Below, piece after piece: positions 38,291 through 54,418 of a stretch of 64,000 nucleotides of DNA. Position 1 is the first letter of the stretch. Every line of letters begins with the position of its first letter. Under the pieces are notes generated by a model, which saw only the letters and a list, made by a program, of their open reading frames with translations, was not told where the DNA came from and ran no database searches. The position numbers and the translations under genes were made by a program. Source of the stretch: Candidatus Eremiobacteria bacterium (GTDB taxonomy: Bacteria; Vulcanimicrobiota; Vulcanimicrobiia; Vulcanimicrobiales; Vulcanimicrobiaceae); NCBI GenBank assembly GCA_963737065.1, contig CAVTRC010000001.1, positions 2,016,001-2,080,000 on the forward strand, given 5' to 3'.

Positions 38291-38368
38291 CCTTTTCCTG
38301 ACTCCTATGGTAGGGTTGTACAGCAAGCCCATGCCAGACGCATGGCATTTTGTAGCTGAAAGAGACGA

Positions 38369-38541
38369 GGGGGCCCCGCTGTAGCGGGGGGCGCGCAGCC
38401 GAAGGCGGAGTGCCTTTCAAACCTACGGGGTCCCCAAAACGCGAAGCGTCACGATGGGGACCCGCTGTAGCGGGGGCGCGCAGCCGAAGGCGGAGTGCCT
38501 TTCAAACTACGGGGTCCCCAAAGTGCGAAGCAGTTTGGGGG
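38369..38541 (+). repeat. Two tandem copies of a ~88-bp three-hairpin palindromic element upstream of lexA
   Basis: GGGG(C/A)CCCGCTGTAGCGGGGGCGCGCAGCCGAAGGCGGAGTGCCTTTCAAAC..TACGGGGTCCCCAAA occurs twice. Confidence 0.9.
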
Positions 38542-38545
38542 TATT

Positions 38546-39160
38546 TTGGACAAGCCAGCGACAGAGCGACAGCAGCGGATTCTCGAAGTGATTCGCGCCT
38601 TTACCGCAGAGCACGGTTATCCGCCGTCCGTTCGCGAGATCGGCGAGCGCGTCGGCTTATCGTCGTCGTCGACGATTCACGCGCATCTGAAGGCGCTGGA
38701 ACGGCGCGGTCTGATCTCGCGCGATCCGACGAAGCCGCGCGCGCTGCGCTCCGATTTGAACGTCCCGCGTACCCGTCAGCCCGACACCGTCGTCATGCCG
38801 ATCGTCGGCAAAGTGGCCGCCGGCGTTCCGATTACCGCCGAAGAGAATCTCGAGGGCGAGTTCGTTCTGCCGACGTCATTCGTGCCGCGTTCGTCCGATG
38901 CGTTCATGCTGCGCGTGCAGGGTGACTCGATGGTTGAAGCCGCGATCCTCGATGGCGATCTCATTCTGGTGCGTCCGCAAAAAACCGCGAGCAACGGTGA
39001 AATCGTTGTCGCGATGCTCGATGGTGAAGCGACGGTCAAGCGCTTCTATCGCGAGAACGGGCAAGTCCGTTTGCAGCCGGAGAATTCCGCGATGGCGCCA
39101 ATCTACGCGAGCGATGTCGACATCATCGGCCGCGTGGAGGCTGTCGTCCGCCGCCTTTAG
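38546..39160 (+). CDS. lexA: SOS repressor LexA
   Basis: GYPPSVREIG, VAAG cleavage site, GDSM catalytic Ser, ATVKR Lys; TTG start assumed. Confidence 0.96.
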   Translation: MDKPATERQQRILEVIRAFTAEHGYPPSVREIGERVGLSSSSTIHAHLKALERRGLISRDPTKPRALRSDLNVPRTRQPDTVVMPIVGKVAAGVPITAEENLEGEFVLPTSFVPRSSDAFMLRVQGDSMVEAAILDGDLILVRPQKTASNGEIVVAMLDGEATVKRFYRENGQVRLQPENSAMAPIYASDVDIIGRVEAVVRRL

Positions 39161-40304
39161 TGCGGTCACCGGCGCGGCGGCTCGATTTAAAGCCGTAGCC
39201 GACCTTCCGTTTATAGCTGCAACGCGCGACGCGCTGCCTTGGAGTTTCGTCGCGTTGCTGGCGGCTTTCGTTGTTCTTTTGCCGCTCGTCCCCGCGCCCG
39301 GGCCGGTATTCGGGCCGGGTCTCGGATTGCGCGTCTCGTCGGCATTGTTACCGGCATTCGGGATTATGGGGGCCGCACTTGCGCCCGCACTCGGATGGCA
39401 CTATGCGAAGCGGACGGCACTCCCGTTCGCGCCCGCGATCGCCGGGACGTTGTTGGCCTACCTGGTCGCGTTGCCGCCGCTCCATGGATCGGCCCTCGAT
39501 TATCTACGGCTCGTCGGTCCGAGCGGGTTGTTTCTCGCACTCGGTATCGCGGGCGCGTTCGCGCTCTGCGCGCGACTGTTGCGAAATGCGTGGGCCGCTG
39601 CGGCCACCGTCGTCGTACTCTGCTGCATCCTTCATTTCGAACACGTCTCATTGACCGCCGCAGTGCAAGCCGTTCTCAAACCGCTCGGAACGCTCGGCGA
39701 CACATATTTTGCGTTCGTCTTCATCGTGTTCATCGAAACGCTCTTGTGGACGTTCGGCATGCATGGACCGGCGCTGCTGGCGGCCGTCGTCACGCCGGTC
39801 TATCTGACGTTGCAGATGCAAAATACGACCGCGTTCCAATCGCATGCGGCGCTGCCGCACATCGTCGTCGTGTCATTGTTTCTCTTTGTATTTCCCGGCG
39901 GGTCGGGCGGAACGCTTCCCCTGGCCGCACTGCTTGCCGTTTCGCGAGTCCGTAAGCTGCATAGGATCGGCCGCGCGACGATGCTTCCCGCGCTCTTCAA
40001 CATCAACGAGCCGCTGATCTTCGGCGCGCCGATCGTGTTCAATCCGTATCTCGTTCCGCCGTTTCTCATCGTCCCGTTGGTTCTCGCGACGACGACGTAT
40101 TTTTCGATGCAGTGGGGCTGGGTGGGACGTCCGGCGTTTTACGTGCCGTCGTCGGTTCCGACGGTTATCTCTACGTATGTCGCTACGCTCGATCCGCGCG
40201 CCGTTTTACTGGCGATCGTCAACATCGCGATCGCAGCCGTCGTGTACTTCCCGTTCGTGCGCGCATACGAAGCGCATTACGCCGAACCAGACCGCGCACG
40301 GTGA
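39160..40304 (+). CDS. PTS EIIC component, lactose/cellobiose family
   Basis: LLWTFGMHG, GGSGGTLPL, PALFNINEPLIFGAPIVFNP; start unclear. Confidence 0.85.
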
Positions 40305-41548
40305 TCGAGCTTCTCTGCGAACGGTTCGGAATCGGCGGCCGCGTTCGTGAAGCGGCCCTGCGTGCGCACGAACGGGTGCGCGATGTGCGCTATCCCGCAC
40401 AAGAGACGGTGAAGGCAAACGTATTACGCGCGTTTCTCGATGAGGGCATTGCGGAGAGCGATCTTGGCGGTTCGACCGGATATGGCTATGACGACGCTGC
40501 GCGCGAACGGTACGAGTCGTTGCTCGCGCGCGTGTTCGGGGCGGAACGTTGTCTCGCGCGATTGTCGATCGTCAGCGGAACGCATGCGATCGTGATCGCG
40601 CTTGCCGCGTGCGTTCCTCCCGGAAAACGGTTGATCTCGGTGGCGGGTCGTCCGTATGACACGTTACGCAATGCGATCTGCACGGCACCCGATTCACTGG
40701 TCGCGCAAGGTGTCGCGTACGACGAAATCGCCCTTTGCGCGAGTGACGATCTCGATCTCGATACGATCGCGCGAAGCGTTCGACGCAACGACGTGGCAGC
40801 AATTTTCGTGCAGCGTTCGCGCGGCTACGCGGCGCGACGTTCGCTCGATATTGCGCGAATCGAAACGTTGACGTCGCGCGTACGCGAGGCTGCGCCGCAC
40901 GTCCTCATTCTCGTCGACAACTGCTATGGCGAACTCGTCGAGCCACGAGAACCCACTCACGCCGGCGTGGACCTCGTGATGGGCTCGCTGATTAAGAACT
41001 TGGGCGGGTCCCTCGCGCCCGCGGGCGGCTACGTAGCCGGGCGGGAAACCGCCGTCGCTCGCGTTGCTGCGCGGCTCTATGCGCCGGGACTCGGCGGAGC
41101 GCTCGGGCCGACGCTCGGCTTCGGGCGCGCCTTCATTCAAGGCCTCTTTCTCGCACCGCTCGTCGTCGAACAGACCCTGCGCGGCTTGGATTTCGCTGCC
41201 GCACTCTTCGCGGAGTTAGGGTTTCGCGTCGATCCGCTGCCCGGCGCAGCGCGGACGGACATCGTGCAGGCAATCCGTCTGGAAAACACCGAGCGCCTCT
41301 TACGCTTCGCCCGTGGACTCCAGCAAGCGATGCCCGTCAATGCAAAATTTGCGCCGGAACCGGCCCCGGTGCCGGGTTACGTGGATCCCGTCGTTATGTC
41401 GAGCGGCGCGTTCGTTGCGGGTGCGACCATCGAACTTTCGTGCGATGCGCCCTTACGCGAGCCGTACGAGGTGTACTTACAAGGTGGGCTCATAACCGAG
41501 CATACGATGCTCGGTGCACTTTTCGCGGCGCGGGCGGTTCTTGAATAA
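40301..41548 (+). CDS. Methionine gamma-lyase family protein (YnbB-like)
   Basis: STGYGYDD, SGTHAI, QRSRGY, VDNCYGE, GSLIKNLGG. Confidence 0.9.
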   Translation: MIELLCERFGIGGRVREAALRAHERVRDVRYPAQETVKANVLRAFLDEGIAESDLGGSTGYGYDDAARERYESLLARVFGAERCLARLSIVSGTHAIVIALAACVPPGKRLISVAGRPYDTLRNAICTAPDSLVAQGVAYDEIALCASDDLDLDTIARSVRRNDVAAIFVQRSRGYAARRSLDIARIETLTSRVREAAPHVLILVDNCYGELVEPREPTHAGVDLVMGSLIKNLGGSLAPAGGYVAGRETAVARVAARLYAPGLGGALGPTLGFGRAFIQGLFLAPLVVEQTLRGLDFAAALFAELGFRVDPLPGAARTDIVQAIRLENTERLLRFARGLQQAMPVNAKFAPEPAPVPGYVDPVVMSSGAFVAGATIELSCDAPLREPYEVYLQGGLITEHTMLGALFAARAVLE

Positions 41549-41585
41549 AGGCGGCTTACCCGGCGCAGAGAATCAGCTTCCACCA

Positions 41586-41951
41586 GTGAGTACGCAAGAA
41601 GACCGCTCTCACGAGCGCCGGTTTTTCCGAGCATCAGTTGACTTTCCCGTGACGGTTATCGTTCCGGGTCACGAGCTCGTTCTTTCGGGCAGGGCGCTCG
41701 ATCTGAGTCGCGGCGGTATGCGCGTCTCGACGAATACCGATCTTCCGGCGGGACAACCGATCATGTTGCGGTTCGTACTTCCGAACAGCGAGCGCGAACT
41801 ACTCGTCCGCGCGAAAATCGTGCTGTCGTTTTTTGATAATTCGTCACAAATGTACGCGCACGGCATTGCATTCACGCAATACACCACGCACGATCACGAC
41901 CAGATCGCGAATTTCGTCACCAACGTGGAAAGCCGTCCGCAGGGTAGTTAG
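41586..41951 (+). CDS. Single-domain PilZ protein
   Basis: RRFFR and DLSRGG motifs. Confidence 0.85.
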   Translation: MSTQEDRSHERRFFRASVDFPVTVIVPGHELVLSGRALDLSRGGMRVSTNTDLPAGQPIMLRFVLPNSERELLVRAKIVLSFFDNSSQMYAHGIAFTQYTTHDHDQIANFVTNVESRPQGS

Positions 41952-41953
41952 AA

Positions 41954-42175
41954 CTACGGGCGTTGTTCGCCCGACTCACCCATGAAACCGTAGAAAAAGT
42001 AACGGTTCCCGTCGGACGTCGTAATGACGATCCGAGTATCTTGAATTTCAGCTGCTTTGATCGTCTTGCCGATCAATGTCTCAAGAATAGACTGCGCTTG
42101 CATGAATTCGGCCTCGCGCAGTGCATCCGGCTCTACCTCTATGAGCTCGAGAAGCTCGTCGATCCGGTCGTTCAT
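41954..42175 (-). CDS. Small hypothetical protein
   Basis: MNDRIDELLELIE... fills an intergenic gap; AAGGTG RBS-like sequence. Confidence 0.6.
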   Translation of the reverse strand: MNDRIDELLELIEVEPDALREAEFMQAQSILETLIGKTIKAAEIQDTRIVITTSDGNRYFFYGFMGESGEQRP

Positions 42176-42295
42176 CGTCACCTTTTGAATAATCGTCCGC
42201 CCCGGCGGTTTTGTTAGCGTATCGTAAGCATCAACTCGCCTGGACGCCGTTCCTACCAGGAGCCGGGCGGCTTCATCAGCGAAGGCCACGCCGCC

Positions 42296-42589
42296 ATGTA
42301 CCTACTCGAGGTCCTCAGCGGACCATTAGATGGAAAAACCTGGACGTTCGAGAGCGAAATTACGATTGGGCGCGACGATTCGGTCGCAGAAGCGTGCATC
42401 CCCCTTGACCGCTATGTTTCCCGCAAACACGCGCACCTACGCGTCGAGGGCCGGACGCTGCATGTCACCGACTTGGAAAGCCGTAACGGCACGAAAGTAA
42501 ACGGGGAAGTCGTCAACGGCAAGGCGACGCTCGATATCGGTGCGCCTTTTATCGTGGGGCGGACCGTGCTGCGTGTAACGCGCGCGTAA
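42296..42589 (+). CDS. FHA domain protein
   Basis: IGR, VSRKHA, DLESRNGTKVNG. Confidence 0.9.
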   Translation: MYLLEVLSGPLDGKTWTFESEITIGRDDSVAEACIPLDRYVSRKHAHLRVEGRTLHVTDLESRNGTKVNGEVVNGKATLDIGAPFIVGRTVLRVTRA

Positions 42590-42601
42590 GCAAGCGCAGG
42601 A

Positions 42602-43426
42602 ATGCAAGTCGTTACAGCGGTCCTGCAGGCGCGCGCCTTGTTCGAAGTGATGCCACGTCCGCTTGGTTTCGTCCCCACAATGGGTGCGTTGCATGAAGGT
42701 CATTTGGCGCTGGCGCGGCGCGCGCGCGAAGCATCCGCCGGTGTTGCGGCTTCGATTTTCGTCAATCCGTTGCAGTTCGGCGCAAACGAAGATCTTCAAA
42801 CGTATCCGCGCGATCTCGAGAGCGACCGCGCGAAGTTCGCGGCTGCGGGTGTCGACGTACTGTTTCTTCCGGATCAAGCCTCGATGTATCCGCCTGATTT
42901 TTCGACAAGCGTCGATGTGGGCGAGATCGGCACGCGCTTCGAAGGCGCCGCCCGGCCAACGCATTTTCGCGGGGTGACGACGGTCGTGTCGAAGCTGCTC
43001 AATATCGTTCGTCCAGATACGCTCTACTTAGGACAAAAAGACGCTCAGCAAACTGCCGTGCTACGCCGGATGATTCGCGACCTCGCCATTCCGGCCACCG
43101 TCGTCATCGTGCCGACCGAGCGCGAGATCGACGGGCTCGCGCTCTCGAGCCGTAATCGCTACTTAGCGCCCGAAGAACGGCAAGCCGCACCGTCGCTACA
43201 CCATGCGCTCGAAGCGCTGCGCACGGCGATGCAGAACGGCAAGTCGAAGGCGGATGCTATCGCGGTTGCGCGAACGCGGCTCGATCCGCTCGCACGGGTC
43301 GACTATCTCGACGTCGTCGACGCGAATACGTTTGCGCCGATCGACGTGCTTGCACCGCCCGCATTCGTGATCGGAGCCGCGCGATTCGGCTCCACGCGGC
43401 TGCTGGACAATCTATGGATCGAATAG
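42602..43426 (+). CDS. panC: Pantoate-beta-alanine ligase
   Basis: PTMGALHEGH, FVNPLQF, GQKDAQQ, LSSRN. Confidence 0.96.
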   Translation: MQVVTAVLQARALFEVMPRPLGFVPTMGALHEGHLALARRAREASAGVAASIFVNPLQFGANEDLQTYPRDLESDRAKFAAAGVDVLFLPDQASMYPPDFSTSVDVGEIGTRFEGAARPTHFRGVTTVVSKLLNIVRPDTLYLGQKDAQQTAVLRRMIRDLAIPATVVIVPTEREIDGLALSSRNRYLAPEERQAAPSLHHALEALRTAMQNGKSKADAIAVARTRLDPLARVDYLDVVDANTFAPIDVLAPPAFVIGAARFGSTRLLDNLWIE

Positions 43427-44619
43427 ATCCGTTGCCCGGCGCCCGCGTCCTGCTCGGCGTCTGCGGCGGAATCGCGGCGTATAAGATTGCTTCGCTGACA
43501 AGCGCACTTGTTCAGCGCGGCGCCATCGTCGACGTCATGATGACGGCGGAAGCCGAGCACTTCATCGGATCGCTCACGTTCTCGTCGCTGACCGCGCGTC
43601 CGGTCTACACTTCGTTGTGGGATGCGCCCGAACACATTCCGCATATCCGTCTCGTGCGCGAAGCGGACGTTGCGGTCGTCGCACCGGCGACCGCCAACGT
43701 CATTGCGAAACTGGCGCACGGCATCGCCGACGATCTGCTGACCACGGCGCTGCTCGCGGCGCGCATTCCGGTACTCGTAGCGCCCGCGATGAACAGCGCT
43801 ATGTACGACGATGCGGCGACGCAGGCGAACCTGGACACGCTGCGCGCGCGCGGATATTGCTTCATCGACCCAGAGCGCGGCTTTCTCGCCGAGCGCGAGC
43901 CGGGTGTCGGACGTCTCGCCTCTGAAGAGCGATTGCTCGATGCGATTACGGACGTGCTGCACCGCAAAAAGTCGCTTGCGGGAAAGCGCGTTGCGATTAC
44001 CGCCGGTCCAACACGCGAAGCGTTCGATCCGATTCGCTTCATCAGCAATGCGTCGACCGGGTCGACCGGCATTGAACTTGCGCGCGAAGCATCGTTGCGC
44101 GGTGCGGACGTGACCTTGCTTCTTGGGCCGACCCTCCTCGAACCGCCGGCCGGTGTGCGCGTTGTCCGTTTCACGTCGGCGCAAGAACTCTACGAAGCGG
44201 CATTGCATGAAGCAACCGGCGCCGATCTAACGATTGCAACGGCAGCCGTTGCCGATTGGCGCCCCGCCGAGCGCGCCGAGTTGAAATTGAAGAAGACCGC
44301 CGACGATCTTACCGCACGGATGGTTCGCAATCCGGACGTCCTCGCGGCGCTCGGCGAGCGAAAAGCGCAGACGTTTCTCGTCGGCTTCGCCGCGGAAACC
44401 GACCTGCACGAAACGCACGCGCGCGAGAAGCTGACGCGAAAACATCTTGATGCCATCGTCGTGAACGACGTGCGCGGCGAACGCGGATTCGGGCGTGTCG
44501 AAAACACGTTGACGCTATTGTGGGGAGAGGACGGGCGCAAGAACCTCGGTACGGCGGCAAAAGCGCAACTCGCCGTGCGCCTCTTCGATGCGATTGAAGA
44601 GTTGATGCGATGTTCTTAG
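43414..44619 (+). CDS. coaBC: Bifunctional PPC decarboxylase/synthetase
   Basis: GGIAAYK, APATAN, PAMN, TAGPTRE, VGFAAET. Confidence 0.96.
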   Translation: MDRIDPLPGARVLLGVCGGIAAYKIASLTSALVQRGAIVDVMMTAEAEHFIGSLTFSSLTARPVYTSLWDAPEHIPHIRLVREADVAVVAPATANVIAKLAHGIADDLLTTALLAARIPVLVAPAMNSAMYDDAATQANLDTLRARGYCFIDPERGFLAEREPGVGRLASEERLLDAITDVLHRKKSLAGKRVAITAGPTREAFDPIRFISNASTGSTGIELAREASLRGADVTLLLGPTLLEPPAGVRVVRFTSAQELYEAALHEATGADLTIATAAVADWRPAERAELKLKKTADDLTARMVRNPDVLAALGERKAQTFLVGFAAETDLHETHAREKLTRKHLDAIVVNDVRGERGFGRVENTLTLLWGEDGRKNLGTAAKAQLAVRLFDAIEELMRCS

Positions 44620-45392
44620 CGATCGACGTCGGCAATACGGAAACGAAGCTCGGCATCTTCGAGGACGCCGCCGACGAGCTCGTGCATCATTGGCGCATCA
44701 ATACCGATGCACGCCGTACGGCGGACGAATACGGGGTGTTCTTCACGCAGCTTTTTGCGACCGCATCGTTGCCCGTGAACGCGATCGATGCGGTTGCGAT
44801 CGCAAGCGTCGTTCCGCGGCTCGACAACACGCTCGCCGGCGTCTGCGAGAAGTTCTTCAACGTGCGCGCGCACTTTCTCGAACCGCAGCGGCAGGACCTG
44901 ATCGAGATCCGCACCGAGCGTCCGGCGGAAGTCGGCGCGGATCTGGTCGCGGCGGCGATCGGCGGCCGGCAGCGCTACGGAGCGCCCTTGATTGTCGTAA
45001 GTTACGGTACGGCGACCGTCTTTACGGCGATTTCGCCGCAAGGCGAGTATCTCGGCGTTGCGATTGCGCCGGGCATCAATGTCTCGATCGACGCATTGGT
45101 CGGGCGAACCGCCAAACTTCCGCAAGTCGCACTCGAAGCGCCGGATCGCGCGATCGGCCGCAACACGATCGAAGCACTCCAAGCGGGATTCATGTACGGG
45201 TTCGTCGGCCAAAGCGAAGCGATCATCACGCGCATGCGGGCCGAGATGCAATACGATGCGCGCGTCGTAGCGACCGGCGGTCTTGCCGACGCCGTAGCGC
45301 GGCACAGTTCGCTCATCGAACGTGTCGATCCGAACTTGAGCCTTATCGGGCTGCAGTTGTTCTATACAAAGCTGCACGACGCCGGCACGTGA
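44610..45392 (+). CDS. coaX: Type III pantothenate kinase
   Basis: IDVGNT, VGAD, GTAT, ATGG. Confidence 0.93.
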   Translation: MFLAIDVGNTETKLGIFEDAADELVHHWRINTDARRTADEYGVFFTQLFATASLPVNAIDAVAIASVVPRLDNTLAGVCEKFFNVRAHFLEPQRQDLIEIRTERPAEVGADLVAAAIGGRQRYGAPLIVVSYGTATVFTAISPQGEYLGVAIAPGINVSIDALVGRTAKLPQVALEAPDRAIGRNTIEALQAGFMYGFVGQSEAIITRMRAEMQYDARVVATGGLADAVARHSSLIERVDPNLSLIGLQLFYTKLHDAGT

Positions 45393-45438
45393 ATCTGCGA
45401 CCCGTCCAAAGACGAGTCATGGTATACTGCGGGTTGCC

Positions 45439-46446: not shown

Positions 46447-46478
46447 AAAACGAGGAGACCGCATTGCGACCTCCTCGT
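46445..46478 (-). terminator. Terminator for a minus-strand (tRNA-like) transcript
   Basis: Minus strand reads ACGAGGAGGTCGC-AAT-GCGGTCTCCTCGT then TTTTT. Confidence 0.7.
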
Positions 46479-46517
46479 CTCGTAGCTCAATTGGATTGAG
46501 CACGGCCCCGACTAAGC
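46479..46517 (+). repeat. Inverted copy of the 5' half of the adjacent tRNA-like gene
   Basis: 34/39 identical to the reverse complement of 46605-46643. Confidence 0.9.
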
Positions 46518-46572
46518 ACCCTGACTTTAGCGCGGCCGACCAAACCGCGTCAAGGTGCTTGAGTCCTTGGGT

Positions 46573-46646
46573 CGCGCTCGGCGGGACTCGAACCCGCATC
46601 TCCGGCTTAGTCGGAACCGTGCTTTATCCAATTAAGCTACGAGCGC
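46573..46646 (-). tRNA. tRNA-like gene: Arg-type body, non-canonical anticodon loop CCGACUA (GAC at 34-36), no encoded CCA
   Basis: GCGCTCG TA GCTT AATTGGATA AAGC A CGGTT CCGACTA AGCCG GAGAT GCGGG TTCGAGT CCCGC CGAGCGC G gives a complete 74-nt cloverleaf. Confidence 0.8.
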
Positions 46647-46647
46647 T

Positions 46648-47934
46648 GTGATGCAATCACGCGATGGACAGTCGTTGACAACCGAGACCGCGCACGATCT
46701 TGCCGGCGAAGCGTTCGAGAATTACAAGCAGTACATTAATCCGCCGTTGGCGCGCGTGATGAAGCTCTCAGGCTCGCCGGTTGAAGTCCGCGCTTCGGGC
46801 ACGACGATTTGGGATCAGAACGGTAAGGCGTATCTCGATTTCGCCGGCGGCTACGGCGTCTTCACGCTCGGACACTCGCATCCGCGTGTGATTGCCGCGG
46901 TCCGCGAGCAGATGGAGTCGATGTCGCTTTCGGGCAAGACGATGTTCAACGTTATGCTCGGACGAGCGGCGAAACGTCTCGCGCAACTCGCGCCCGGAGA
47001 TCTCCAGTATTCATTTTGGTGCAATAGCGGAACCGAAGCGGTAGAAGGCGCGATCAAGCTCGCGCGTGCCGCAACGGGACGGATAAAGATCGTTGCAACG
47101 CGCGATGCATATCACGGAAAAACGATCGGCGCCCTGTCGATTAGCGGTCGCGAAGCTTTTCAAACGCCGTTTCGTCCGCTTCTGGCTGACGTGGCGCACG
47201 TCGATTTTGGAGACGCATCCGTGCTCGATGACGCGCTGCGCGATGCGGCCGCATTCATCGTGGAACCCGTGCAAGGCGAAGGCGGCGTAAACGTCCCGCG
47301 CGACGGCTATCTGCGCGCCGTTCGCGATGCGTGCGATCGCACCGGCGCGGTCTTTATCGCCGACGAAGTGCAAACGGGTCTCGGCCGCTGCGGTTACCGG
47401 TTCGGTTGCGATCGCGACGGCGTCGTTCCCGACGTCATGACGCTCGCGAAGGGACTCTCCGGCGGCGTCATTCCGGTCGGGGCGTTCATCGCACGCCCCG
47501 ACCTGTGGAATCGCGCGTACGCGAAGCAGCCGCTCGTACACACGTCGACATTCGGCGGAAGCGAAATCGCATGCGCCGCCGCGCTCGCCGCGATGGACGT
47601 TCTCGAGGACGAGGACCTCATCGCAAACGCGCGCGATCGCGGTGCACAATTGCTCGACGGATGCCGTGCGCTTGCAACGCAATTTCCTCACGTGATTCGT
47701 GAAGCGCGCGGCGTCGGGTTGCTCGTCGGCGTTGAACTCACGAACGAGGGCTACGGCGGCTGGATCATTCCGGAAATGTTGAAAGCCGGCGTGACGGCCG
47801 CGTGGACGCTGAATCAGCAGCGCGTTATTCGCTTGGAGCCGCCGTTGGTGGTCACCGGCGACGAAGTACAGTACGCGCTCGCGGCATTGCGGGCAGGGGT
47901 AACAACCGCCGGTGAGAAGCTAGGGCGCTTGTAA
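46648..47934 (+). CDS. Class III PLP aminotransferase (putrescine/acetylornithine aminotransferase-like)
   Basis: YLDFAGGYG, IADEVQTGLGRCG, LAKGLSGG, HTSTFGG; true start may be TTG 46675. Confidence 0.9.
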   Translation: MMQSRDGQSLTTETAHDLAGEAFENYKQYINPPLARVMKLSGSPVEVRASGTTIWDQNGKAYLDFAGGYGVFTLGHSHPRVIAAVREQMESMSLSGKTMFNVMLGRAAKRLAQLAPGDLQYSFWCNSGTEAVEGAIKLARAATGRIKIVATRDAYHGKTIGALSISGREAFQTPFRPLLADVAHVDFGDASVLDDALRDAAAFIVEPVQGEGGVNVPRDGYLRAVRDACDRTGAVFIADEVQTGLGRCGYRFGCDRDGVVPDVMTLAKGLSGGVIPVGAFIARPDLWNRAYAKQPLVHTSTFGGSEIACAAALAAMDVLEDEDLIANARDRGAQLLDGCRALATQFPHVIREARGVGLLVGVELTNEGYGGWIIPEMLKAGVTAAWTLNQQRVIRLEPPLVVTGDEVQYALAALRAGVTTAGEKLGRL

Positions 47935-47941
47935 ATCGATC

Positions 47942-48376
47942 ATGCCCTACGTCGAAACCACGATTGCGATCGCGGCGCCTGCGCGCGCGGTTTACGAGCT
48001 CGCGAAAGATCAGGAGCGGTTCCCGCAATTCATGCCGGACGTCGAAACCGTGTCGGTTCTCGAACGCCATGCGGATCATTGGATCACACGCTGGAAGACG
48101 CTTGTGGAAGAAGCGCCGATCGAGTGGACGGAAGAAGATCGTTTCGATGACGACGCATTGCGCATCGATTACAAACTGCTCGAGGGCGATCTCGATAAGT
48201 TCGAAGGCGCGTGGACATTCGAAGAACGTGACGGCATAACGCACGTGCTGCTCGGCGTCGACTACGATTTCGGCGTGCCGACGCTCGCGCAGTTGATCGG
48301 CCCGACCCTAGAGAAAAAGGTCAAGGAAAACAGCGAGATGATGCTCGCAGCGCTCAAACGCGAGGCTGAAAAGTGA
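47942..48376 (+). CDS. SRPBCC/START (polyketide cyclase/Coq10-like) lipid-binding protein
   Basis: APARAVYELAKDQERFPQFMP, EGDLDKFEGAW. Confidence 0.88.
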   Translation: MPYVETTIAIAAPARAVYELAKDQERFPQFMPDVETVSVLERHADHWITRWKTLVEEAPIEWTEEDRFDDDALRIDYKLLEGDLDKFEGAWTFEERDGITHVLLGVDYDFGVPTLAQLIGPTLEKKVKENSEMMLAALKREAEK

Positions 48377-48674
48377 TGGGGGCCCCAAAGGCCTTTGGGG
48401 GGGCGCGCAGCCGCAGGCGGAGTGCCTGTCAAACAGAGGGGTCCCCGAAGTGCGGAGCACTTTGGGGATGAAGGAAAACAGCGAGATGATGCTCGCAGCG
48501 CTCAAACGCGAGGCTGAAAAGTGATGGGGCCCCAAAGGCGTTTGGGGGGCGCGCAGCCGCAGGCGGAGTGCCTGTTAAACAGAGGGGTCCCCGAAGTGCG
48601 GAGCACTTTGGGGATGAAGGAAAACAGCGAGATGATGCTCGCAGCGCTTAAACGCGAGGCTGAAAAGTGATGGG
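48323..48674 (+). repeat. A-B-A-B-A array: three copies of the 58-bp SRPBCC gene end separated by two palindromic elements
   Basis: A starts at 48323, 48471, 48617; B at about 48378-48467 and 48526-48613 is homologous to the lexA-upstream element. Confidence 0.92.
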
Positions 48675-49794
48675 CACCCAAAGCGCTCGGCCGAAATTCT
48701 GCTTCGTCATTCACCCGCTTTCGCTGCTGGACGTTGCCCGTTATGAGCCGGGCGCGGCGGGCAAGGGAGAGCCGATCATTCGCAAGATTCTCGAGTGGAT
48801 GCCGTCGTACGCTGCGGTGCATGTGACCGGCGTGCGCACGCCGGACGGTCGCGAAACGGAAGGGTGGTTCGTGGCCGCGCCGCTGCTGCCCGAGCAGATC
48901 ATGGAGTTGCCGCGCGAAGAGGTGTACAAGCGAATCGTGCGCGCGATCGAGATCGGTGCGGAACTCGGCGCAAATGTTGCGGGACTCGGGGCGTTCACCG
49001 GCGTCGTCGGTGACGGCGGCATCACGATTGCGCAACGGTCGCCGATCCCGGTGACGACGGGAAACTCGCTCACGATTGCCGCCGGAATCCAAAGTCTATT
49101 CCGCGCCGCGCGCGAAATGGAGATCGATCCGTCGACGTCAACCGCCGTCGTCGTCGGTGCAACGGGTTCGATCGGAAGCGCATGCGTGAAGCTCATTGCG
49201 TCGCGCGTCAAAGACGTGATTCTCGTCGCGCGCAACGCCACGCGTTTAGCGAAGTTTCACGAAGAGGTGCGCGACGAGCTTCCGTGCGACTCGACGTACA
49301 CGACCGATATTCCGGACGCCGTGCGCCGTTCGCAATTGATTCTTACCGCGACATCGTCGACGCAAGATATCATCGAGCCCGAAGATTTGCAAACCGGCGC
49401 GGTCGTCTGCGAACTATCCCTTCCGCACGACGTCAGCCGGCGTGTTGCGTTGGAGCGTCCCGACGTCCTCGTCACCGAAGGCGGCAACATGTGCGTGCCG
49501 GGTGCGCCTCGATTCGAACGCGTCCGTGAACCCGGAACGGATTTCGATTTGAATCTCCCTCCGCGCACCGCACTCGCCTGCATGAGCGAAACCATGGTGC
49601 TCGCACTCGAACGCCGCTTCGAGTCGTATACACTCGGCCGCGGCATCGATGTAGCGAAGGTCGTCGAGATCGAAGAGATGGCCGGACGCTGTGGGTTCAC
49701 GCTCGCCGGCATGCGTGCATTCGACGCAGCGATTACGCGCGAAAAAGTAACGGCGACCCGAGAAGCCGCCGCCGCACGGCGCGTCGCTGTATGA
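48670..49794 (+). CDS. Acyl-ACP reductase-like protein (fatty-aldehyde-forming AAR family; often annotated shikimate dehydrogenase-like)
   Basis: FVIHP, GLGAFT, TTGNSLT, VVGATGSIG, ALACMSETMVLAL resemble cyanobacterial AAR motifs including the catalytic-Cys region. Confidence 0.75.
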   Translation: MGTQSARPKFCFVIHPLSLLDVARYEPGAAGKGEPIIRKILEWMPSYAAVHVTGVRTPDGRETEGWFVAAPLLPEQIMELPREEVYKRIVRAIEIGAELGANVAGLGAFTGVVGDGGITIAQRSPIPVTTGNSLTIAAGIQSLFRAAREMEIDPSTSTAVVVGATGSIGSACVKLIASRVKDVILVARNATRLAKFHEEVRDELPCDSTYTTDIPDAVRRSQLILTATSSTQDIIEPEDLQTGAVVCELSLPHDVSRRVALERPDVLVTEGGNMCVPGAPRFERVREPGTDFDLNLPPRTALACMSETMVLALERRFESYTLGRGIDVAKVVEIEEMAGRCGFTLAGMRAFDAAITREKVTATREAAAARRVAV

Positions 49795-49835
49795 AGCCTG
49801 GTACGGCGCCGCCGCATCGCGGTTCAGCCGTTGCT

Positions 49836-49986
49836 CGACGAGGTCCCGCTGCATGATCGCTCGCGCCGCCATGTTCTTTAGGCGCGCCCTAGGGGCGTTT
49901 CAAGCGCACCGAGTTCTGTCGCGCGCCATGCACGGGGGGCCCCACAACGTGGGGGGCGCGGAGGCTCGGCCGGAGCGCCGTTCAAA
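49836..49986 (+). repeat. Extended (~150 bp) palindromic element, copy Q
   Basis: Aligns with a single 1-nt gap to 52717-52862; its 3' part matches the lexA/SRPBCC element core. Confidence 0.85.
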
Positions 49987-50892
49987 ATGAAAAAAATCGT
50001 GTCGGTGTCGCTTGGCTCGTCGACACGCGATCATCGCGCCGTCATCGATCTCATGGGCGAGGACTTCGATATTTCACGCGAAGGTGTCGACGGCAAATTG
50101 GACGTGGCGATCAAACGGGTCGAGGAGCTCGACGGGAAGGTCGATGCGATCGGGCTCGGCGGGATCGACGTCTACCTGTATGCAGGATCGAAGCGGTATG
50201 CGTTGCGCGACGGCTTACGTTTGCTCAATGCGGCGAAAACTACGCCGGTCGTTGACGGAAGCGGTCTCAAGAACACACTCGAACGCGAAGCGGTCCGATA
50301 TATGCAAGACGACCTGCACATCGATCTTCGCGGGAAAAAAGTGCTGATGGTGAGCGCGCTCGACCGCTTCGGTATGGCGCAGGCGCTCGTCGACGCCGGT
50401 GCGGATGTGCTCTTCGGTGACTTCATCTTCGCGCTCGACAAAGACATGGCGGTGCGCGATCTCAAGACATTCGAAGAGATGGCGGAAAAATATCTCCCGG
50501 ACGCCTGCAAACTGCCGTTTCAATTTTTTTATCCCACAGGGAAGAAACAAGAGAAGCCGCCCGAGCCGAAGTATCCGCAGTACTACGACGAAGCCGACAT
50601 CATTGCGGGCGACTTCCATTTCATGCGCCAGTTCATGCCGCGTCGCCTCGACGGAAAGATCGTGTTGACCAACACCGTTACGCAAGCGAATATCGACGAA
50701 CTGCGCGATCGCGGCGTTACGATGTTAATCACCACGACGCCCGACTTCGAAGGCCGTTCGTTCGGAACGAACGTCATCGAAGCGGCATTGCTCGCGTTCC
50801 TCGGCAAGCGCTGGGAAGATGTGACGCCCGCGGACTACGAGCGCGTGTTGCGGGAATTGCGTCTGCGTCCGCGGGTCATCTCGCTGAATTGA
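49987..50892 (+). CDS. Conserved hypothetical protein (commonly annotated 'quinate 5-dehydrogenase')
   Basis: VSVSLGSS.RDH, DAIGLGG, PVVDGSGLKNTLE, GRSFGTNV. Confidence 0.8.
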   Translation: MKKIVSVSLGSSTRDHRAVIDLMGEDFDISREGVDGKLDVAIKRVEELDGKVDAIGLGGIDVYLYAGSKRYALRDGLRLLNAAKTTPVVDGSGLKNTLEREAVRYMQDDLHIDLRGKKVLMVSALDRFGMAQALVDAGADVLFGDFIFALDKDMAVRDLKTFEEMAEKYLPDACKLPFQFFYPTGKKQEKPPEPKYPQYYDEADIIAGDFHFMRQFMPRRLDGKIVLTNTVTQANIDELRDRGVTMLITTTPDFEGRSFGTNVIEAALLAFLGKRWEDVTPADYERVLRELRLRPRVISLN

Positions 50893-51398
50893 TCGTCGGC
50901 GTCGTTTCCGACACGCACCTTCCGCGCTTCGGTTGCGAGTTGCCGCCGGCGCTCGTGCGCGGCTTGCGAACGGCGAACGTCGACGTCATCGCGCATTGCG
51001 GCGATTTGACGGAACTGATGGCGATCGACCTACTCCGGGAGATCGCGCCCGTCGTTGCGGTCGCCGGCAATAACGACGCGAAGCAGCTGCATAAAGAGCT
51101 GGGCGAGCGCAAAATCATCGAAGCGGGCGACGCGCGCATCGGCGTCGTGCATGGCCACGCCGGGAAGGGACGCTCAACCGCCGACCGCGCGTTCAATGCG
51201 TTCACCGATGAGGCGGTCGACGTAATTCTGTTCGGTCATTCGCACATTCCATATCGTGCGCGGCGCGACGGCGTACTGCTGTTCAATCCGGGTTCGCCTA
51301 CCGACAAACGGCTAAATCCCGCATATTCGTATGGGATCGTGCGCGTCGACGGCAAGCGCGTGCGCGCCTCACATCGCTTCTATCTCTCGAAGAAGTAA
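50889..51398 (+). CDS. YfcE/MJ0936-family metallophosphoesterase
   Basis: SDTH, HCGD, GNND, HGH, FGHSH, NPGS. Confidence 0.9.
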   Translation: MIVGVVSDTHLPRFGCELPPALVRGLRTANVDVIAHCGDLTELMAIDLLREIAPVVAVAGNNDAKQLHKELGERKIIEAGDARIGVVHGHAGKGRSTADRAFNAFTDEAVDVILFGHSHIPYRARRDGVLLFNPGSPTDKRLNPAYSYGIVRVDGKRVRASHRFYLSKK

Positions 51399-51404
51399 GG
51401 CCGA

Positions 51405-52013
51405 GATGGCGAGCATATTGCGATGCGTGCTCGCGTACATACCTCGGTACGCCGAGCGGCTTTGCGGAGAACCAAACGGACACGCTCCCCTACGTCGGCA
51501 CGTTGCTGGGCGGGATGGTGGCGCAGTGCGATTGTGGTGACCGCGCTCGTATCCACGCTGACGACGCTCTGGACGACGATTTTGTACCTGTCGCGGTCGG
51601 CATTTGCGATGGGCCGCGACCGGCTGTTGCCCCGCGCGCTCGGCGAACTCGACCGGCGCGACGAACCGCTGTGGTCGCTCGCGGTCGTGGCCGTCCTCGT
51701 GACGGTATGCGAACTGGTTACCGGCTTTTCAAAGACGGCGACCGATCAACTTCAGCTCGTGCTCAATGCCAGCTCGGTTTTCCTCGGCCTGCTATTCGTG
51801 TTATCCGCCTTCGCAGCCGTGCGGCGGTTCAGGCACGACCGTAGCGCATCGTTGAGCAGCGTTATCATTCCTTCGGTCGGCGGCATCGCGTTGCTCGGCG
51901 TTCTCGCAGCAACGATCGCGGTCGAAGACCCCACCCTCCGCTGGTATGCGTGGTCGGGCATCGTCTTGGGTATACCGTTCGCACTCTGGCGCGGTCGGGT
52001 TCTGCGAGGGTAG
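51405..52013 (+). pseudogene. C-terminal half of an APC-family amino-acid permease (5'-truncated, frameshifted)
   Basis: SRSAFAMGRDRLLP motif and 5-6 TM helices; no room for the N-terminal half after the upstream gene. Confidence 0.65.
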
Positions 52014-52163
52014 AACCACGGTTTGCCTTCATGGTGCAGGGGAACGCTCGGAGTCCCCCAAACAAACCGCGCCAGCGTTCTCACCCGGACGCAAAATTTG
52101 TTTACACGGGGTCCGTAGCGGGGCTTCAGCGCCTCGCCGTCGATCCTTCGTGAGGGTCTGTAC

Positions 52164-52688
52164 TTGAACGAAAAAGAGATTATACTCACCGCCGAAGGCC
52201 TGGCGAAACTCCAGAACGAGCTCGATGAGCTCAAAACCGTCCATCGCAAAGAGGTCAACGACCGGATACGCCAGGCGAAAGAGTACGGTGACCTGAGCGA
52301 AAACGCCGAGTACGAGGATGCCAAGCAAGAGCAGGCGTTCATCGAAGGCCGTATCCTCAAACTCGAAGCGATGATTCGTAACTCGCGCATCATCGATGAA
52401 TCCGAATACGCAGCCGACGAAGTTCACTTGGGTGCGACCGTCAAGGTCAAAGACCTCAAGAACAACGACAGCTACGAGTTTCACATCGTCGGATCAGCGG
52501 AAGCGGACCCAACCGCGAAGCGCATCTCGAACGAATCGCCCCTCGGCCGCGCGCTCATCGGTCACAAGAAGGGCGAGACGGTCGACGTTTCCACGCCGCG
52601 CGGCGTCGTGAAATACAAGATCGAAGCGATCAAGAACGGCAACGGCGCAGTCGCGCCCGCAAAGAAGGCTGCAAAAAAAGCGTCTTAG
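52164..52688 (+). CDS. greA: Transcription elongation factor GreA
   Basis: YGDLSENAEY, ISNESPLGRALIG. Confidence 0.97.
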   Translation: MNEKEIILTAEGLAKLQNELDELKTVHRKEVNDRIRQAKEYGDLSENAEYEDAKQEQAFIEGRILKLEAMIRNSRIIDESEYAADEVHLGATVKVKDLKNNDSYEFHIVGSAEADPTAKRISNESPLGRALIGHKKGETVDVSTPRGVVKYKIEAIKNGNGAVAPAKKAAKKAS

Positions 52689-52716
52689 CCCGACGAGGTT
52701 CCCGGTTGTCATAGCG

Positions 52717-52862
52717 CGACGAGGTCCCGATCTATGAACCTTCGCGACGTACCGTCTTTTAGGCGCGCCCTAGGGGAGAGCTTCGTGTTCCTCACTTCTG
52801 TCGCGCGTCATGGTTAGGGGGCCCCACGAAGTGGGCGGCGCCGAGTCCGGGGCGGAGCGCCT
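52717..52862 (+). repeat. Extended palindromic element, copy K, overlapping the lysS 5' end
   Basis: Homologous to 49836-49986; partial extra CGACGAGGTTCCCG at 52691. Confidence 0.85.
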
Positions 52863-54357: not shown

Positions 54358-54418
54358 AAAGCAAACGCCGCGAGGCCCCTCCGGCGTCGTGCATGAATCA
54401 ATCAATCTCGCTTTCGTT

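What the first reader, a model, noticed from the sequence alone, without database searches (positions are those of the whole stretch)
38369..52862. Undescribed multi-hairpin repeat family that sits on gene starts (6 copies)
Seen: the core GGGG-CCCC[hairpin]GGGG-GGCGC-nnA-[3-bp stem, 3-nt loop]-GGA-GYGCC occurs at about 38369, 38456, 48378, 48526, 49934 and 52817. Four copies add a third CCCC...GGGG hairpin. Stems covary (CCCCGC/GCGGGG, CCCCAAAG/CTTTGGGG, CCCAC/GTGGG; GCC/GGC versus GGC/GCC). Many loops are C-GNA-G triloops (GAA, GCA, GGA). All copies are co-oriented with transcription and abut or overlap a start codon. Established: C-GNA-G triloops are exceptionally stable in single-stranded DNA. 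Inference: a non-autonomous element moved through ssDNA (REP/MITE-like, mobiliser not in this window) or a cis-regulatory RNA, analogous to Rickettsia palindromic elements.
Basis: partly seen in the sequence, partly recalled or inferred. Interest (0 to 1): 0.8.

Follow-up and report, generated by a model that had tools for sequence, protein, structure and literature searches.

The report
Mobile hairpin repeat at gene starts
A small, hairpin-rich DNA repeat found in only one family of the uncultured phylum Eremiobacterota has repeatedly landed on the ribosome-binding sites and start codons of unrelated genes, and it brings a replacement ribosome-binding site, much like the MIRU repeats of mycobacteria.

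Summary
All six copies sit at the stated places, all on the + strand, and a truncated seventh lies at 48670-48690. A covariance model finds about 25-30 copies in this genome. In the phylum it hits only one GTDB family of Eremiobacterota (37 of 61 genomes; 0 of 79 in 20 other families). Rfam has no match. Three helices covary strongly.

There are two forms. Type B (core plus a third hairpin) sits in or beside the Shine-Dalgarno G-run, and its 3' G-run takes the SD's place. Type A (an extra upstream helix plus core) ends in GGAG-YGCC-UUUNAAA directly before the start codon.

The element comes and goes between species of one genus. The lexA, clpP, lysS and fabZ|lpxA copies are in this genome only. 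Clean empty sites show 3-7 nt direct repeats (GTGA, TGA, TGAT, AATG). Many copies carry a read-through mini-ORF ending in ATGA. Two window genes (lysS and the 48670 gene) now take their start codon from the element.

No Y1/RAYT transposase was found, and neither reverse transcriptase nor IS110 presence tracks the element.

Best reading: a MIRU-like non-autonomous repeat tolerated because it rebuilds the translation start. The mobiliser is unknown and a regulatory role is not excluded.

The parts
38369..38455 (+). Type B copy 1. Layout: G-run, H1 (38374-38389), H2 (38390-38414), UUUCAAAC, then a degenerate third hairpin. It is the upstream member of a tandem pair.
   Evidence: R1 53.0 bits. Absent from 5 of 5 congeners.
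38456..38541 (+). Type B copy 2. Its 3' G-run (38537-38541) lies 4 nt before the lexA TTG start at 38546, in the position of the native GGGGAG Shine-Dalgarno.
   Evidence: the empty alleles read ...ctgaaaGGGGAGttcttcgGTG. LexA domains.
48323..48683 (+). A 146-nt tandem duplication, 2.5 units. Each unit is the 54-nt tail of the SRPBCC gene plus one type B element.
   Evidence: 96% matches. G003 shares it; G001, G002, G005 and G006 lack it.
48376..48471 (+). Type B copy 3, read as a 31-codon mini-ORF. Its ATG overlaps the upstream TGA (TGATG), and its TGA overlaps the next ATG (ATGA).
   Evidence: R1 43.0 bits. Fold z = -2.78.
48524..48617 (+). Type B copy 4, with the same stop/start overlaps at both ends.
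   Evidence: R1 42.8 bits.
48670..48690 (+). Truncated third copy (ATGGGCACCCAAAGCGCTCGG). It supplies the start codon and first codons of the dehydrogenase-like gene 48670-49794.
   Evidence: Congeners start GTGAAGACGCCGAAATTC; G000 reads ATGGGCACCCAAAGCGCTCGGCCGAAATTC.
49836..49986 (+). Long type A copy. Parts: box CGACGAGGTCCCG (49836-49848), left ATG (49871), helix P_a (49881-49887 with 49921-49927), and core H1+H2 (49934-49986). The tail GTTCAAA abuts the ATG at 49987.
   Evidence: (75.4 bits). Filled in G000, G001 and G003; empty in G002, G005 and G006.
52717..52868 (+). Long type A copy fused in frame to lysS. Parts: box (52717-52729), P_a (52762-52768 with 52803-52809), ATG at 52810, core (52816-52868). 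The native lysS start codon is gone.
   Evidence: ORF 52810-54357; 70.4 bits. No R1 match upstream of lysS in 24 other genera.

Best explanation
This is a lineage-specific, non-autonomous interspersed repeat of one Eremiobacterota family. In behaviour it resembles mycobacterial MIRUs.

Shown:
- It is gained and lost between sister species.
- It lies almost always in the sense orientation at translation-initiation regions.
- Type B lies in or beside the Shine-Dalgarno G-run, and its own 3' G-run ends up where the SD was.
- Type A lies at the stop/start junction or on the start codon. It is flanked by short direct repeats of the junction and ends in GGAG-YGCC-UUUNAAA directly before the start codon.
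- Its three helices keep pairing through compensatory changes.

Inferred:
- It is co-transcribed with the host gene and tolerated, even inside essential operons, because it rebuilds a working translation start. That start is an SD-like G-run or GGAG, an A/U-rich spacer and often the ATG itself.
- In many copies a read-through mini-ORF ends in ATGA, which would hand terminating ribosomes on to the gene.
- The hairpins are needed on the sense strand, as RNA or as single-stranded DNA, for propagation.

The enzyme that moves it is unknown.
For: Copy number and range:
- 30 R1 matches at E<=1 in this genome; 24 at E<=0.01.
- Matches in 20 of 24 genomes of the own family and 0 of 16 in two sister families.
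- Matches in 37 of 61 own-family genomes against 0 of 79 in 20 other families of the phylum.

Filled versus empty sites within the genus:
- lexA: only G000 is filled.
- clpP: only G000.
- fabZ|lpxA: only G000, 6 of 6 congeners empty.
- greA|lysS: only G000.
- rpoZ: G000 and G003.
- rpsJ: G000 and G002.
- infB|rbfA: G000.
- adk|map: G002 filled, G000 empty.

Junctions:
- GTGA lies on both sides at rbfA.
- TGA at the 49934 site.
- ATGA/GTGAT at lpxA.
- AATG at map.

Position:
- A long ORF starts within -4..+5 nt of the element's 3' end in 69 of 111 copies (59 ATG), against 18 of 111 in an antisense control.
- At all 4 type B sites with empty alleles, the element replaces or abuts the native SD.

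Mini-ORF:
- 26 of 39 type A copies with an adjacent start have a frame open for at least 100 nt that stops within -3..+12 of the start. 22 of these stops are at +1. Shuffles give 35%.
- The frame through the core differs between copies, so no peptide is conserved.
- The one antisense copy in G000 (fabZ|lpxA) is also bridged by TAA-ATG...GTGA.

Structure:
- Searches support all helices.
- 32 G-U cells against 8 other non-pairs place the fold on the sense strand.

Literature:
- MIRUs 'insert themselves at start codons' with a coupled ORF at -4 nt spacing (PMC12548453, passage).
- MIRUs have tetranucleotide direct repeats at filled sites (PMC3184786, passage).
Against: - No mobiliser was found. 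PF01797 gave 0 of 6 genomes.
- Reverse transcriptase is only a broken fragment here. It occurs in 1 of 6 element-rich and 2 of 6 element-free genomes.
- IS110 transposase occurs in 1 of 6 element-rich and 1 of 6 element-free genomes.
- The flanking direct repeats vary from 3 to about 7 nt, unlike a fixed staggered cut. At type B sites they cannot be delimited.
- Precise placement could come from selection on random insertions rather than from targeting.
- There are no expression data.
- Thermodynamic folding of the two type A copies is no better than shuffles (z = 0.10 and 0.57). Type B gives -1.97 and -2.78.
- 13 of 39 type A copies lack a coupled mini-ORF.
- Some copies persist across species (smpB in 4 of 6 genomes compared) or across genera.
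- The orthologous smpB copies of G000 and G005 share a compensatory GGUGC/GCACC change. This hints at constraint after insertion, and so at a host function.
- Not all copies are at starts. A 4.5-unit array at C2:506091-506533 lies at the 3' end of an opposite-strand gene.
Confidence: 0.6

Rival explanations
1. It is a host cis-regulatory RNA, for example a leader bound by a global RNA-binding protein or a structure that gates the ribosome-binding site. It would place many housekeeping genes under common translational control, and its mobility would only be the way the regulon was assembled.
For: - Strong sense-strand covariation.
- Conserved GGA/GGAG in the internal loop next to the start codon.
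- Downstream genes are rich in translation and housekeeping functions: rpsJ, rpsP, rbfA, smpB, lysS, trmH-like, rpoZ, clpP, lexA.
- The shared compensatory change in the orthologous smpB copies of G000 and G005.
Against: - The gene set is not conserved. 4 of the 10 sites compared within the genus are filled in G000 alone.
- lysS carries the element in 1 of 25 genera sampled.
- Copy number runs from 0 to about 42 per genome.
- Copies decay by internal deletion (atpA copy).
- One copy is antisense and one is inverted in a sister species.
- No Rfam family matches.
Confidence: 0.15
2. It is a REP/RAYT- or IS200/IS605-type element moved as single-stranded DNA by a Y1 HUH transposase acting in trans.
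For: - Many C-GNA-G triloops. By recalled knowledge these are unusually stable in DNA.
- The structure is read on one strand.
- In 24 of 26 G000 copies that strand is the G-rich strand, i.e. the lagging-strand template.
- No terminal inverted repeats.
Against: - PF01797 was not found in G000 (95% complete) or in 5 element-rich relatives, while the control genomes ring.
- Junction repeats are present, and IS200/IS605 elements make none (recalled).
- The two copies on the other replication strand follow their gene, not the replication direction.
Confidence: 0.07
3. It spreads through an RNA copy: reverse transcription primed at the target, as for SINE-like elements. This would explain the sense orientation and the variable target duplications.
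For: - Direct repeats vary from 3 to about 7 nt.
- Microhomology between the element's 3' end (..AAA-ATG-A) and the target.
- Near-constant sense orientation in transcribed regions.
Against: - Only one broken RVT_1 fragment in G000.
- RVT_1 is present in 1 of 6 element-rich genomes and 2 of 6 element-free genomes.
- Antisense and inverted copies exist.
Confidence: 0.08
4. There is no dedicated mobility. Copies arise by host recombination, replication slippage or template switching between G-runs and start-codon microhomologies, and by local tandem duplication.
For: - No mobiliser was found.
- Tandem arrays are common: 146 nt x 2.5, 100 nt x 4.5, and pairs at lexA and ribF.
- The lysS copy is chimeric with native sequence (GGCGCCGAG).
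- The long type A 5' box resembles the native rnr 3' end at the smpB site.
Against: - There are dozens of dispersed copies at unrelated loci with sharp boundaries and short direct repeats.
- Helices are maintained by compensatory change across genera.
- Copy number reaches about 40 in some genomes.
Confidence: 0.1

Closest known systems
MIRU (mycobacterial interspersed repetitive units; Supply et al. 1997). Known to me only through a passage of PMC12548453 and passages of PMC3184786; the 1997 paper itself was not seen.
   Same: - A short repeat inside operons, present in tens of copies.
- Lands on start codons.
- Has an internal ORF coupled to the gene by a 4-nt overlap.
- Short direct repeats at filled sites, with empty sites in relatives.
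- Forms tandem arrays.
- No known transposase.
   Different: - No sequence relation was tested, and the phylum is different.
- Here three helices covary strongly.
- There are two architectures, one of which goes into the Shine-Dalgarno G-run rather than the start codon.
- The element carries an SD-like motif.
- The mini-ORF is missing in a third of copies.
Neisseria REP2 and Borrelia plasmid inverted-repeat sequences (PMC3184786, passage)
   Same: They lie immediately upstream of genes and carry a ribosome-binding site, an ATG and two internal stem-loops.
   Different: Those repeats are said to carry a promoter. No sigma-70-like site falls in the window copies (0 of 3 sites), and many copies here lie inside operons.
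REP/BIME elements with RAYT transposases (REPINs); properties recalled, plus a passage of PMC3184786
   Same: - GC-rich extragenic hairpins that are transcribed within operons.
- They serve as targets for IS elements. An island with an IS110-family transposase fragment sits in a type A cluster here.
   Different: - No RAYT gene.
- The element is much longer and has several hairpins.
- It is anchored at gene starts, not gene ends.
Rickettsia palindromic elements (recalled; PMC3184786 cites Ogata 2000 for in-frame repeat insertions)
   Same: Repeat sequence is translated as part of host proteins. This applies to the lysS N-terminus and the first codons of the 48670 gene.
   Different: Here the fusions are exceptions at 5' ends. 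Most copies are intergenic.

Membership tests
MIRU-like start-codon repeats (a behavioural class, not a homology family) | Inserted at start codons, with an internal ORF overlapping the gene start by 4 nt (ATGA) | tested here: met
   69 of 111 copies have a start within -4..+5 nt. 22 of 39 type A copies have a coupled stop at +1. 13 of 39 have no coupled ORF.
MIRU-like start-codon repeats (a behavioural class, not a homology family) | Filled and empty sites in relatives, with short (tetranucleotide) direct repeats | tested here: met
   GTGA at rbfA, TGA at the 49934 site, TGA(T) at lpxA, AATG at map. Elsewhere the lengths vary from 3 to about 7 nt.
MIRU-like start-codon repeats (a behavioural class, not a homology family) | Sequence similarity to mycobacterial MIRUs | not tested
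   No MIRU sequence was at hand, so membership by descent is not claimed.
REP/RAYT (REPIN) | A Y1 HUH transposase (RAYT, PF01797) encoded in the genome | tested here: not met
   0 matches in G000 and 0 of 5 element-rich relatives. Controls ring in 6 of 14 genomes.
MITE | Terminal inverted repeats, a fixed-length target duplication, and a parent IS with the same ends | tested here: not met
   By inspection of the ends there are no terminal inverted repeats (5' GGGGGCCCC or CGACGAGGTCCCG against 3' CTTTGGGG or GCGCCTTTCAAA). Duplication length is not fixed. No repeat-finding run was made on the ends.
IS200/IS605-derived palindrome-associated elements | Subterminal hairpins, insertion 3' of one fixed tetra- or pentanucleotide without duplication, and a TnpA (Y1) in the genome | tested here: not met
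   Hairpins are present, but junction repeats are seen and no Y1 gene was found.
Any Rfam cis-regulatory RNA family | A match to a curated covariance model | tested here: not met
   The whole window at gathering score gave only a tRNA. 49780-50000 gave 0 matches at E<=10. 38300-38560 gave only chance-level matches far below cut-off.
Neisseria REP2-like upstream repeats | Carries a promoter as well as a ribosome-binding site and ATG | tested here: inconclusive
   SD-like motif and ATG are present. No sigma-70-type consensus site lies in the window copies, but the promoter type of this phylum is unknown.

The most novel reading that the evidence does not exclude
The family is a true ribosome-binding-site homing element. 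Its sense-strand hairpins with GGGG-N-CCCC junctions would direct insertion specifically into Shine-Dalgarno G-runs and NTGA stop/start overlaps. It would do so through an enzyme class, or a host pathway, not yet linked to transposition, since Y1/HUH, reverse transcriptase and IS110 do not track it. In this way it would rewrite translation starts and N-termini of essential genes such as lysS.
Probability: 0.25. Interest if true: 0.8.

Novelty: new variant of a known kind. Interest (0 to 1): 0.5.

Why it matters
The element shows how a selfish repeat can live inside the most constrained part of bacterial operons: it carries a portable translation start. It gives a second, structurally well-defined system beside MIRUs, with more than 100 diverse copies, covarying helices and many filled/empty site pairs. 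That makes it usable for finding the still unknown way such repeats move.

It also matters for annotating Eremiobacterota MAGs. Start codons and N-termini next to these repeats (lysS, the 48670 gene) will be miscalled. Notes from this scan (unchecked) suggest similar repeats exist in several other uncultured phyla, so the phenomenon may be general.

Tried and rejected
- Rfam: at gathering score and at E<=10 there was nothing relevant.
- RAYT/IS200 mobiliser (PF01797): not found in 6 of 6 genomes searched.
- Reverse transcriptase: one broken fragment in G000. Across 6 element-rich and 6 element-free genomes there is no link with the element.
- IS110 transposase: 9 matches in G000, of which only one, a truncated copy, lies in an element cluster. 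No link across the same 12 genomes.
- Public sequencing runs: none was listed for window 47900-54400. No RNA holder was listed.
- Crude strand test by open frames: uninformative at 60% GC, because 81 of 110 flanks are open on both strands.
- Thermodynamic folding: the MFE of the type A copies does not reproduce H1 or P_a and is not better than shuffles. I rely on covariation instead.
- Promoter and terminator consensus scan: nothing in the elements.
- Earlier notes of this scan by place and by sequence: nothing.
- Paper search for 'Eremiobacterota' plus 'repeat': 71 papers, 15 listed. By title and abstract start, none of the 15 concerns such an element. One search gave nothing closer. I found no description of this family in those searches.
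- A conserved leader peptide: rejected, because the reading frame through the core differs between copies.
- An integron attC-like reading: considered from memory only. The 3' tails do not fit GTTRRRY consistently. Not tested further.

Full report
**What is there.** Searches show the reported motif at all six places. An alignment of 15 copies from this genome (A1) gives the core GGGGG-CCCC[H1]GGGG-GGCGC-G(C/G)A-[3-5 bp stem, triloop]-GGA-G(Y)GCC-UUYNAAA, with 22 invariant columns. A covariance model (R1) was built from six equal-length copies (A2). It finds 30 matches at E<=1 in the 3.08-Mb genome and 24 at E<=0.01. One further type A copy (C1:183573, minus strand) was seen only through its upstream box, so the census is a lower bound. 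Rfam has nothing at gathering score or at E<=10.

**Two architectures.** Type B covers window copies 38369, 38456, 48378 and 48526. It is the core followed by UUUCAAAC, a few bases, and a third hairpin: GGGG-U-CCCC-stem-GNA-stem-GGGG. The stems of that hairpin differ between copies but stay complementary. Examples are AAAGUGC/GCACUUU, GAAGUCGU/ACGACUUU and AUUUGAAC/GUUCAAAU (read by eye).

Type A covers window copies 49934 and 52816. It has no third hairpin. Instead it has about 100 conserved bases upstream: a box CGACGA(A/G)GUCCCG, a spacer, often an ATG followed by UUYUUU, and then a 7-bp helix P_a. That helix encloses an invariant CC-NN-GGGG-A(G/A).

**Structure.** I used 111 copies (106 distinct) from 100 sources. 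These were 70 of the 118 pattern-scan loci, 27 loci of relatives, the window and 2 own-genome loci. I left out 10 loci whose titles name other phyla, 38 loci (L147-L184) for the 100-source limit, and L057 because it comes from an unpublished genome.
- 99.5% of cells pair.
- 7 of 14 pairs change on both sides, in 82 cells.
- 0 of 500 shuffles reach this, and slid partners pair in only 30-65% of cells.

Caveats: this alignment is fitted to the model, and the 70 pattern loci were selected with part of H2 fixed.

An unfitted MAFFT alignment of 53 type A copies (A4) supports P_a. Six of its 7 pairs change on both sides and 83% of cells pair. The whole structure pairs in 94.2% of cells, with 0 of 500 shuffles as good.

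G-U pairs (32 cells) outnumber all other non-pairs (8 cells), so the fold is read on the sense strand.

Energy alone is weak evidence. Type B copies fold better than shuffles (z = -1.97 and -2.78). The two type A copies do not (z = 0.10 and 0.57), and their minimum-energy folds do not show H1 or P_a.

**Who has it.** Record titles of exact-pattern hits name Eremiobacterota (WPS-2, Vulcanimicrobiota; Vulcanimicrobiaceae, Baltobacteraceae and related).
- Among 40 relatives the model hits 20 of 24 genomes of the own family, 0 of 5 in a second family and 0 of 11 in a third. The 20 include the one match of the unpublished genome G014.
- Across the phylum it hits 37 of 61 own-family genomes and 0 of 79 genomes in 20 other families.
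- Copies per genome run from 0 to about 42.

**It comes and goes.** I compared G000 with congeners G001, G002, G003, G005 and G006, and with G004 in two searches.

| Site | Filled | Empty or other |
|---|---|---|
| lexA (two tandem type B copies) | G000 only | 5 of 5 empty |
| SRPBCC \| dehydrogenase (48378, 48526) | G000, G003 | G001, G002, G005, G006 empty |
| 49934 | G000, G001, G003 | G005, G006 empty; G002 has 73 nt of other sequence |
| greA \| lysS | G000 only | short allele seen in G001, G002, G005; inferred from coordinates in G003, G006 |
| clpP | G000 only | 4 seen empty; G006 shorter by coordinates |
| rpoZ | G000, G003 | G001, G002, G005, G006 empty |
| rpsJ | G000, G002 | G001, G003, G005, G006 seen empty; G004 shorter by coordinates |
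| infB \| rbfA | G000 | G001, G003, G005 empty; G002 and G006 hold other sequence |
| rnr \| smpB | G000, G001, G003, G005 | G006 short; G002 holds another repeat |
| fabZ \| lpxA | G000 only | 6 of 6 empty |

For lysS, R1 also finds no copy upstream in 24 genomes of other genera, apart from a 21-nt H2-like remnant in G022. That count includes the unpublished genomes G014, G041 and G043.

The reverse also occurs. G002 has a copy at adk|map and G006 one before gatB where G000 is empty. G003 has one at atpH|atpA where G000 keeps a derivative with a 42-nt internal deletion.

**Where exactly it sits.** Across 111 copies a long ORF starts within -4..+5 nt of the model's 3' end in 69. The start codons are ATG in 59, TTG in 6 and GTG in 4. 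A mirror-image control gives 18 of 111. For copies without the third hairpin the figure is 68 of 98.

Type B copies sit further from the start, because the third hairpin and the native spacer follow the core. At all four type B sites with an empty allele, the element lies in or against the native Shine-Dalgarno, and its own 3' G-run takes that place:
- lexA: native ctgaaaGGGGAGttcttcgGTG becomes ...GGGGG[CCCC...TTT]GGGGGtattTTG.
- clpP: native ttaGGGAGaattaaGTG becomes ...GCGGGA[CCCC...ATTT]GGGGAGagatttGTG.
- rpoZ: native acaAGGAAtatgATG becomes ...TTTGGGGG[CCCC...CTTT]GGGGAatgaATG.
- rpsJ is similar.

Type A copies sit at stop/start junctions with the junction repeated on both sides:
- rbfA: the native GTGA overlap becomes GTGA[TGAAGTCCCGG...GCGCCTTCAAA]GTGA.
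- The 49934 site: native gcagttTGAaaaaaa becomes gcagttTGA[GCGAG...GCAAAA]TGAag.
- adk|map: native TAATG becomes TGAAATG[TTTTTT...CTTTAAA]ATG.
- lpxA: native TAAATGATtcac becomes TAAATGA[...]GTGATcc.

At smpB, cheA and the ABC-transporter gene the repeated stretch is ATGGC(TA), ATG(T) and ATGATG. The repeats are therefore short but not of one length.

**Consequences for the genes in the window.**
- The lexA start (TTG 38546) now lies 4 nt after the element's G-run.
- The gene at 49987 has ATG where two empty congeners have TTG.
- LysS has lost its native start. The only in-frame starts upstream of the conserved KSEAALVAARR are the element's ATG at 52810 and a GTG inside H1, so about 20 residues of its N-terminus are element-encoded.
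- The H2 5' strand of that copy (GGCGCCGAG) is shared with the native congener sequence, so this copy is chimeric.
- The dehydrogenase-like gene at 48670 begins with a truncated element copy: MGTQSARPKF against native VKTPKF.
- The two copies at 48378 and 48526 are part of a 146-nt tandem duplication that also repeats the last 54 nt of the upstream gene. Every unit is joined by TGATG or ATGA overlaps.

**Ribosome relay.** Of the 39 type A copies with an adjacent start, 26 have a frame open for at least 100 nt that stops within -3..+12 of the start. In 22 of these the stop is at +1 (ATGA). Mononucleotide shuffles of the element give 35%. The frame through the core differs between copies, even for equal core length, so no peptide is conserved. 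Thirteen of the 39 have no such frame. This fits the MIRU description in PMC12548453 (passage), which cites Supply et al. 1997 (that paper was not seen).

**Orientation.** I count 20 element loci in G000.
- 18 have a co-oriented downstream gene, identified by Pfam or by N-terminal similarity read by eye. These are lexA, the dehydrogenase-like gene, the 49987 gene (no Pfam), lysS, cheA, an ABC transporter, ribF, gcvPA, smpB, rbfA, clpP, rpsJ, rpoZ, a DAHP synthase, a SpoU methylase, rpsP, fliH and atpI.
- One copy is antisense, between fabZ and lpxA.
- One 4.5-unit array lies at the 3' end of an opposite-strand gene.
- In G002 the ABC-transporter copy is inverted relative to G000 and G006.
- GC skew puts the origin near C1:1.6 Mb. 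24 of 26 copies have their sense strand on the G-rich strand, but the two exceptions follow their gene, so transcription and replication cannot be separated here.

**Mobiliser.**
- No Y1 HUH transposase was found in G000 or in five element-rich relatives.
- Reverse transcriptase is only a broken fragment in G000. It occurs in 1 of 6 element-rich and 2 of 6 element-free genomes.
- IS110-family transposase has 9 matches in G000 but occurs in 1 of 6 element-rich and 1 of 6 element-free genomes.
- The one IS110 fragment near elements lies in a 4.2-kb island inserted into a tandem type A cluster between truB and ribF. This fits repeats acting as IS targets (PMC3184786, passage) and not the IS moving them.

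**Reading.** The best-supported account is a MIRU-like selfish repeat that survives at translation starts because it rebuilds them. Whether it is aimed at those sites, or lands widely and survives only there, is open. The duplication of an NTGA overlap by itself keeps both the upstream stop and the downstream start, which would favour survival. The maintained hairpins argue for a single-stranded intermediate or an RNA-level role.

A host regulatory function cannot be excluded. Some copies are old, and the smpB copies of G000 and G005 share a compensatory pair.

Unchecked notes of this scan describe comparable repeats in Omnitrophota, Nitrospirota, Acidimicrobiales, Clostridia and Treponema. 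They are leads only. They lower the novelty of this single case and raise the interest of the class.

Noticed in passing
window 28788 (-) and 30026 (-); G000 C1:2414826, C1:946768, C2:211833: A second repeat family with the motif CCTTCGAC-N(3-14)-CTCAGGR has 37 instances in the genome. Three of them are nested inside helix H2 of the main element. A related 119-nt palindromic unit fills the rnr|smpB gap of G002.
   Followed up: partly
L220 3980-8150 (G000 C1:2417480-2421650): A 4.2-kb island lies inside a tandem cluster of type A copies between truB and ribF. It carries an rve-type integrase gene and a truncated IS110-family transposase.
   Followed up: partly
window 38329-38345: The palindrome CCATGCCAGACGCATGG followed by CATTTT lies just upstream of the lexA elements. 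It is conserved in 4 of 5 congeners and diverged in G006. It could be an operator or a terminator of the divergent gene.
   Followed up: no
L059 (G002:C1:509123, minus strand): The copy before the ABC-transporter gene is inverted in G002 relative to G000 and G006, at the same intergenic site. This is either an in-place inversion or an independent insertion.
   Followed up: partly
L022 1151-1593 (G000 C2:506091-506533): A tandem array of 4.5 type B units of 100 nt ends at the stop of an opposite-strand ABC ATPase gene that lies next to an MlaE permease gene. No ORF of 110 aa or more lies in the 1.2 kb before it.
   Followed up: partly
L252 (G006 rnr|smpB junction) and G000 C1:2360939: The type A upstream box (GAAGTCCCG-N-TAG) is the native 3' end of the rnr gene at the smpB site, even in the short G006 allele. 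The long type A form may have picked up its 5' part from that junction.
   Followed up: no
L073, L109, L132, L133: Contigs of MAGs labelled Limnocylindria and Binatia carry copies that score as high as Eremiobacterota copies. Mislabelled or mixed bins seem likelier than transfer.
   Followed up: no
G000 C2:389128-389245 (infA|rpmJ gap): G004 has a type A copy at this junction. G000 instead holds 117 nt of other hairpins, including GGCCCCAATCGTGGGG. This may be another related repeat.
   Followed up: no
window 46573-46646 (-): A tRNA gene, the only Rfam match in the window.
   Followed up: no
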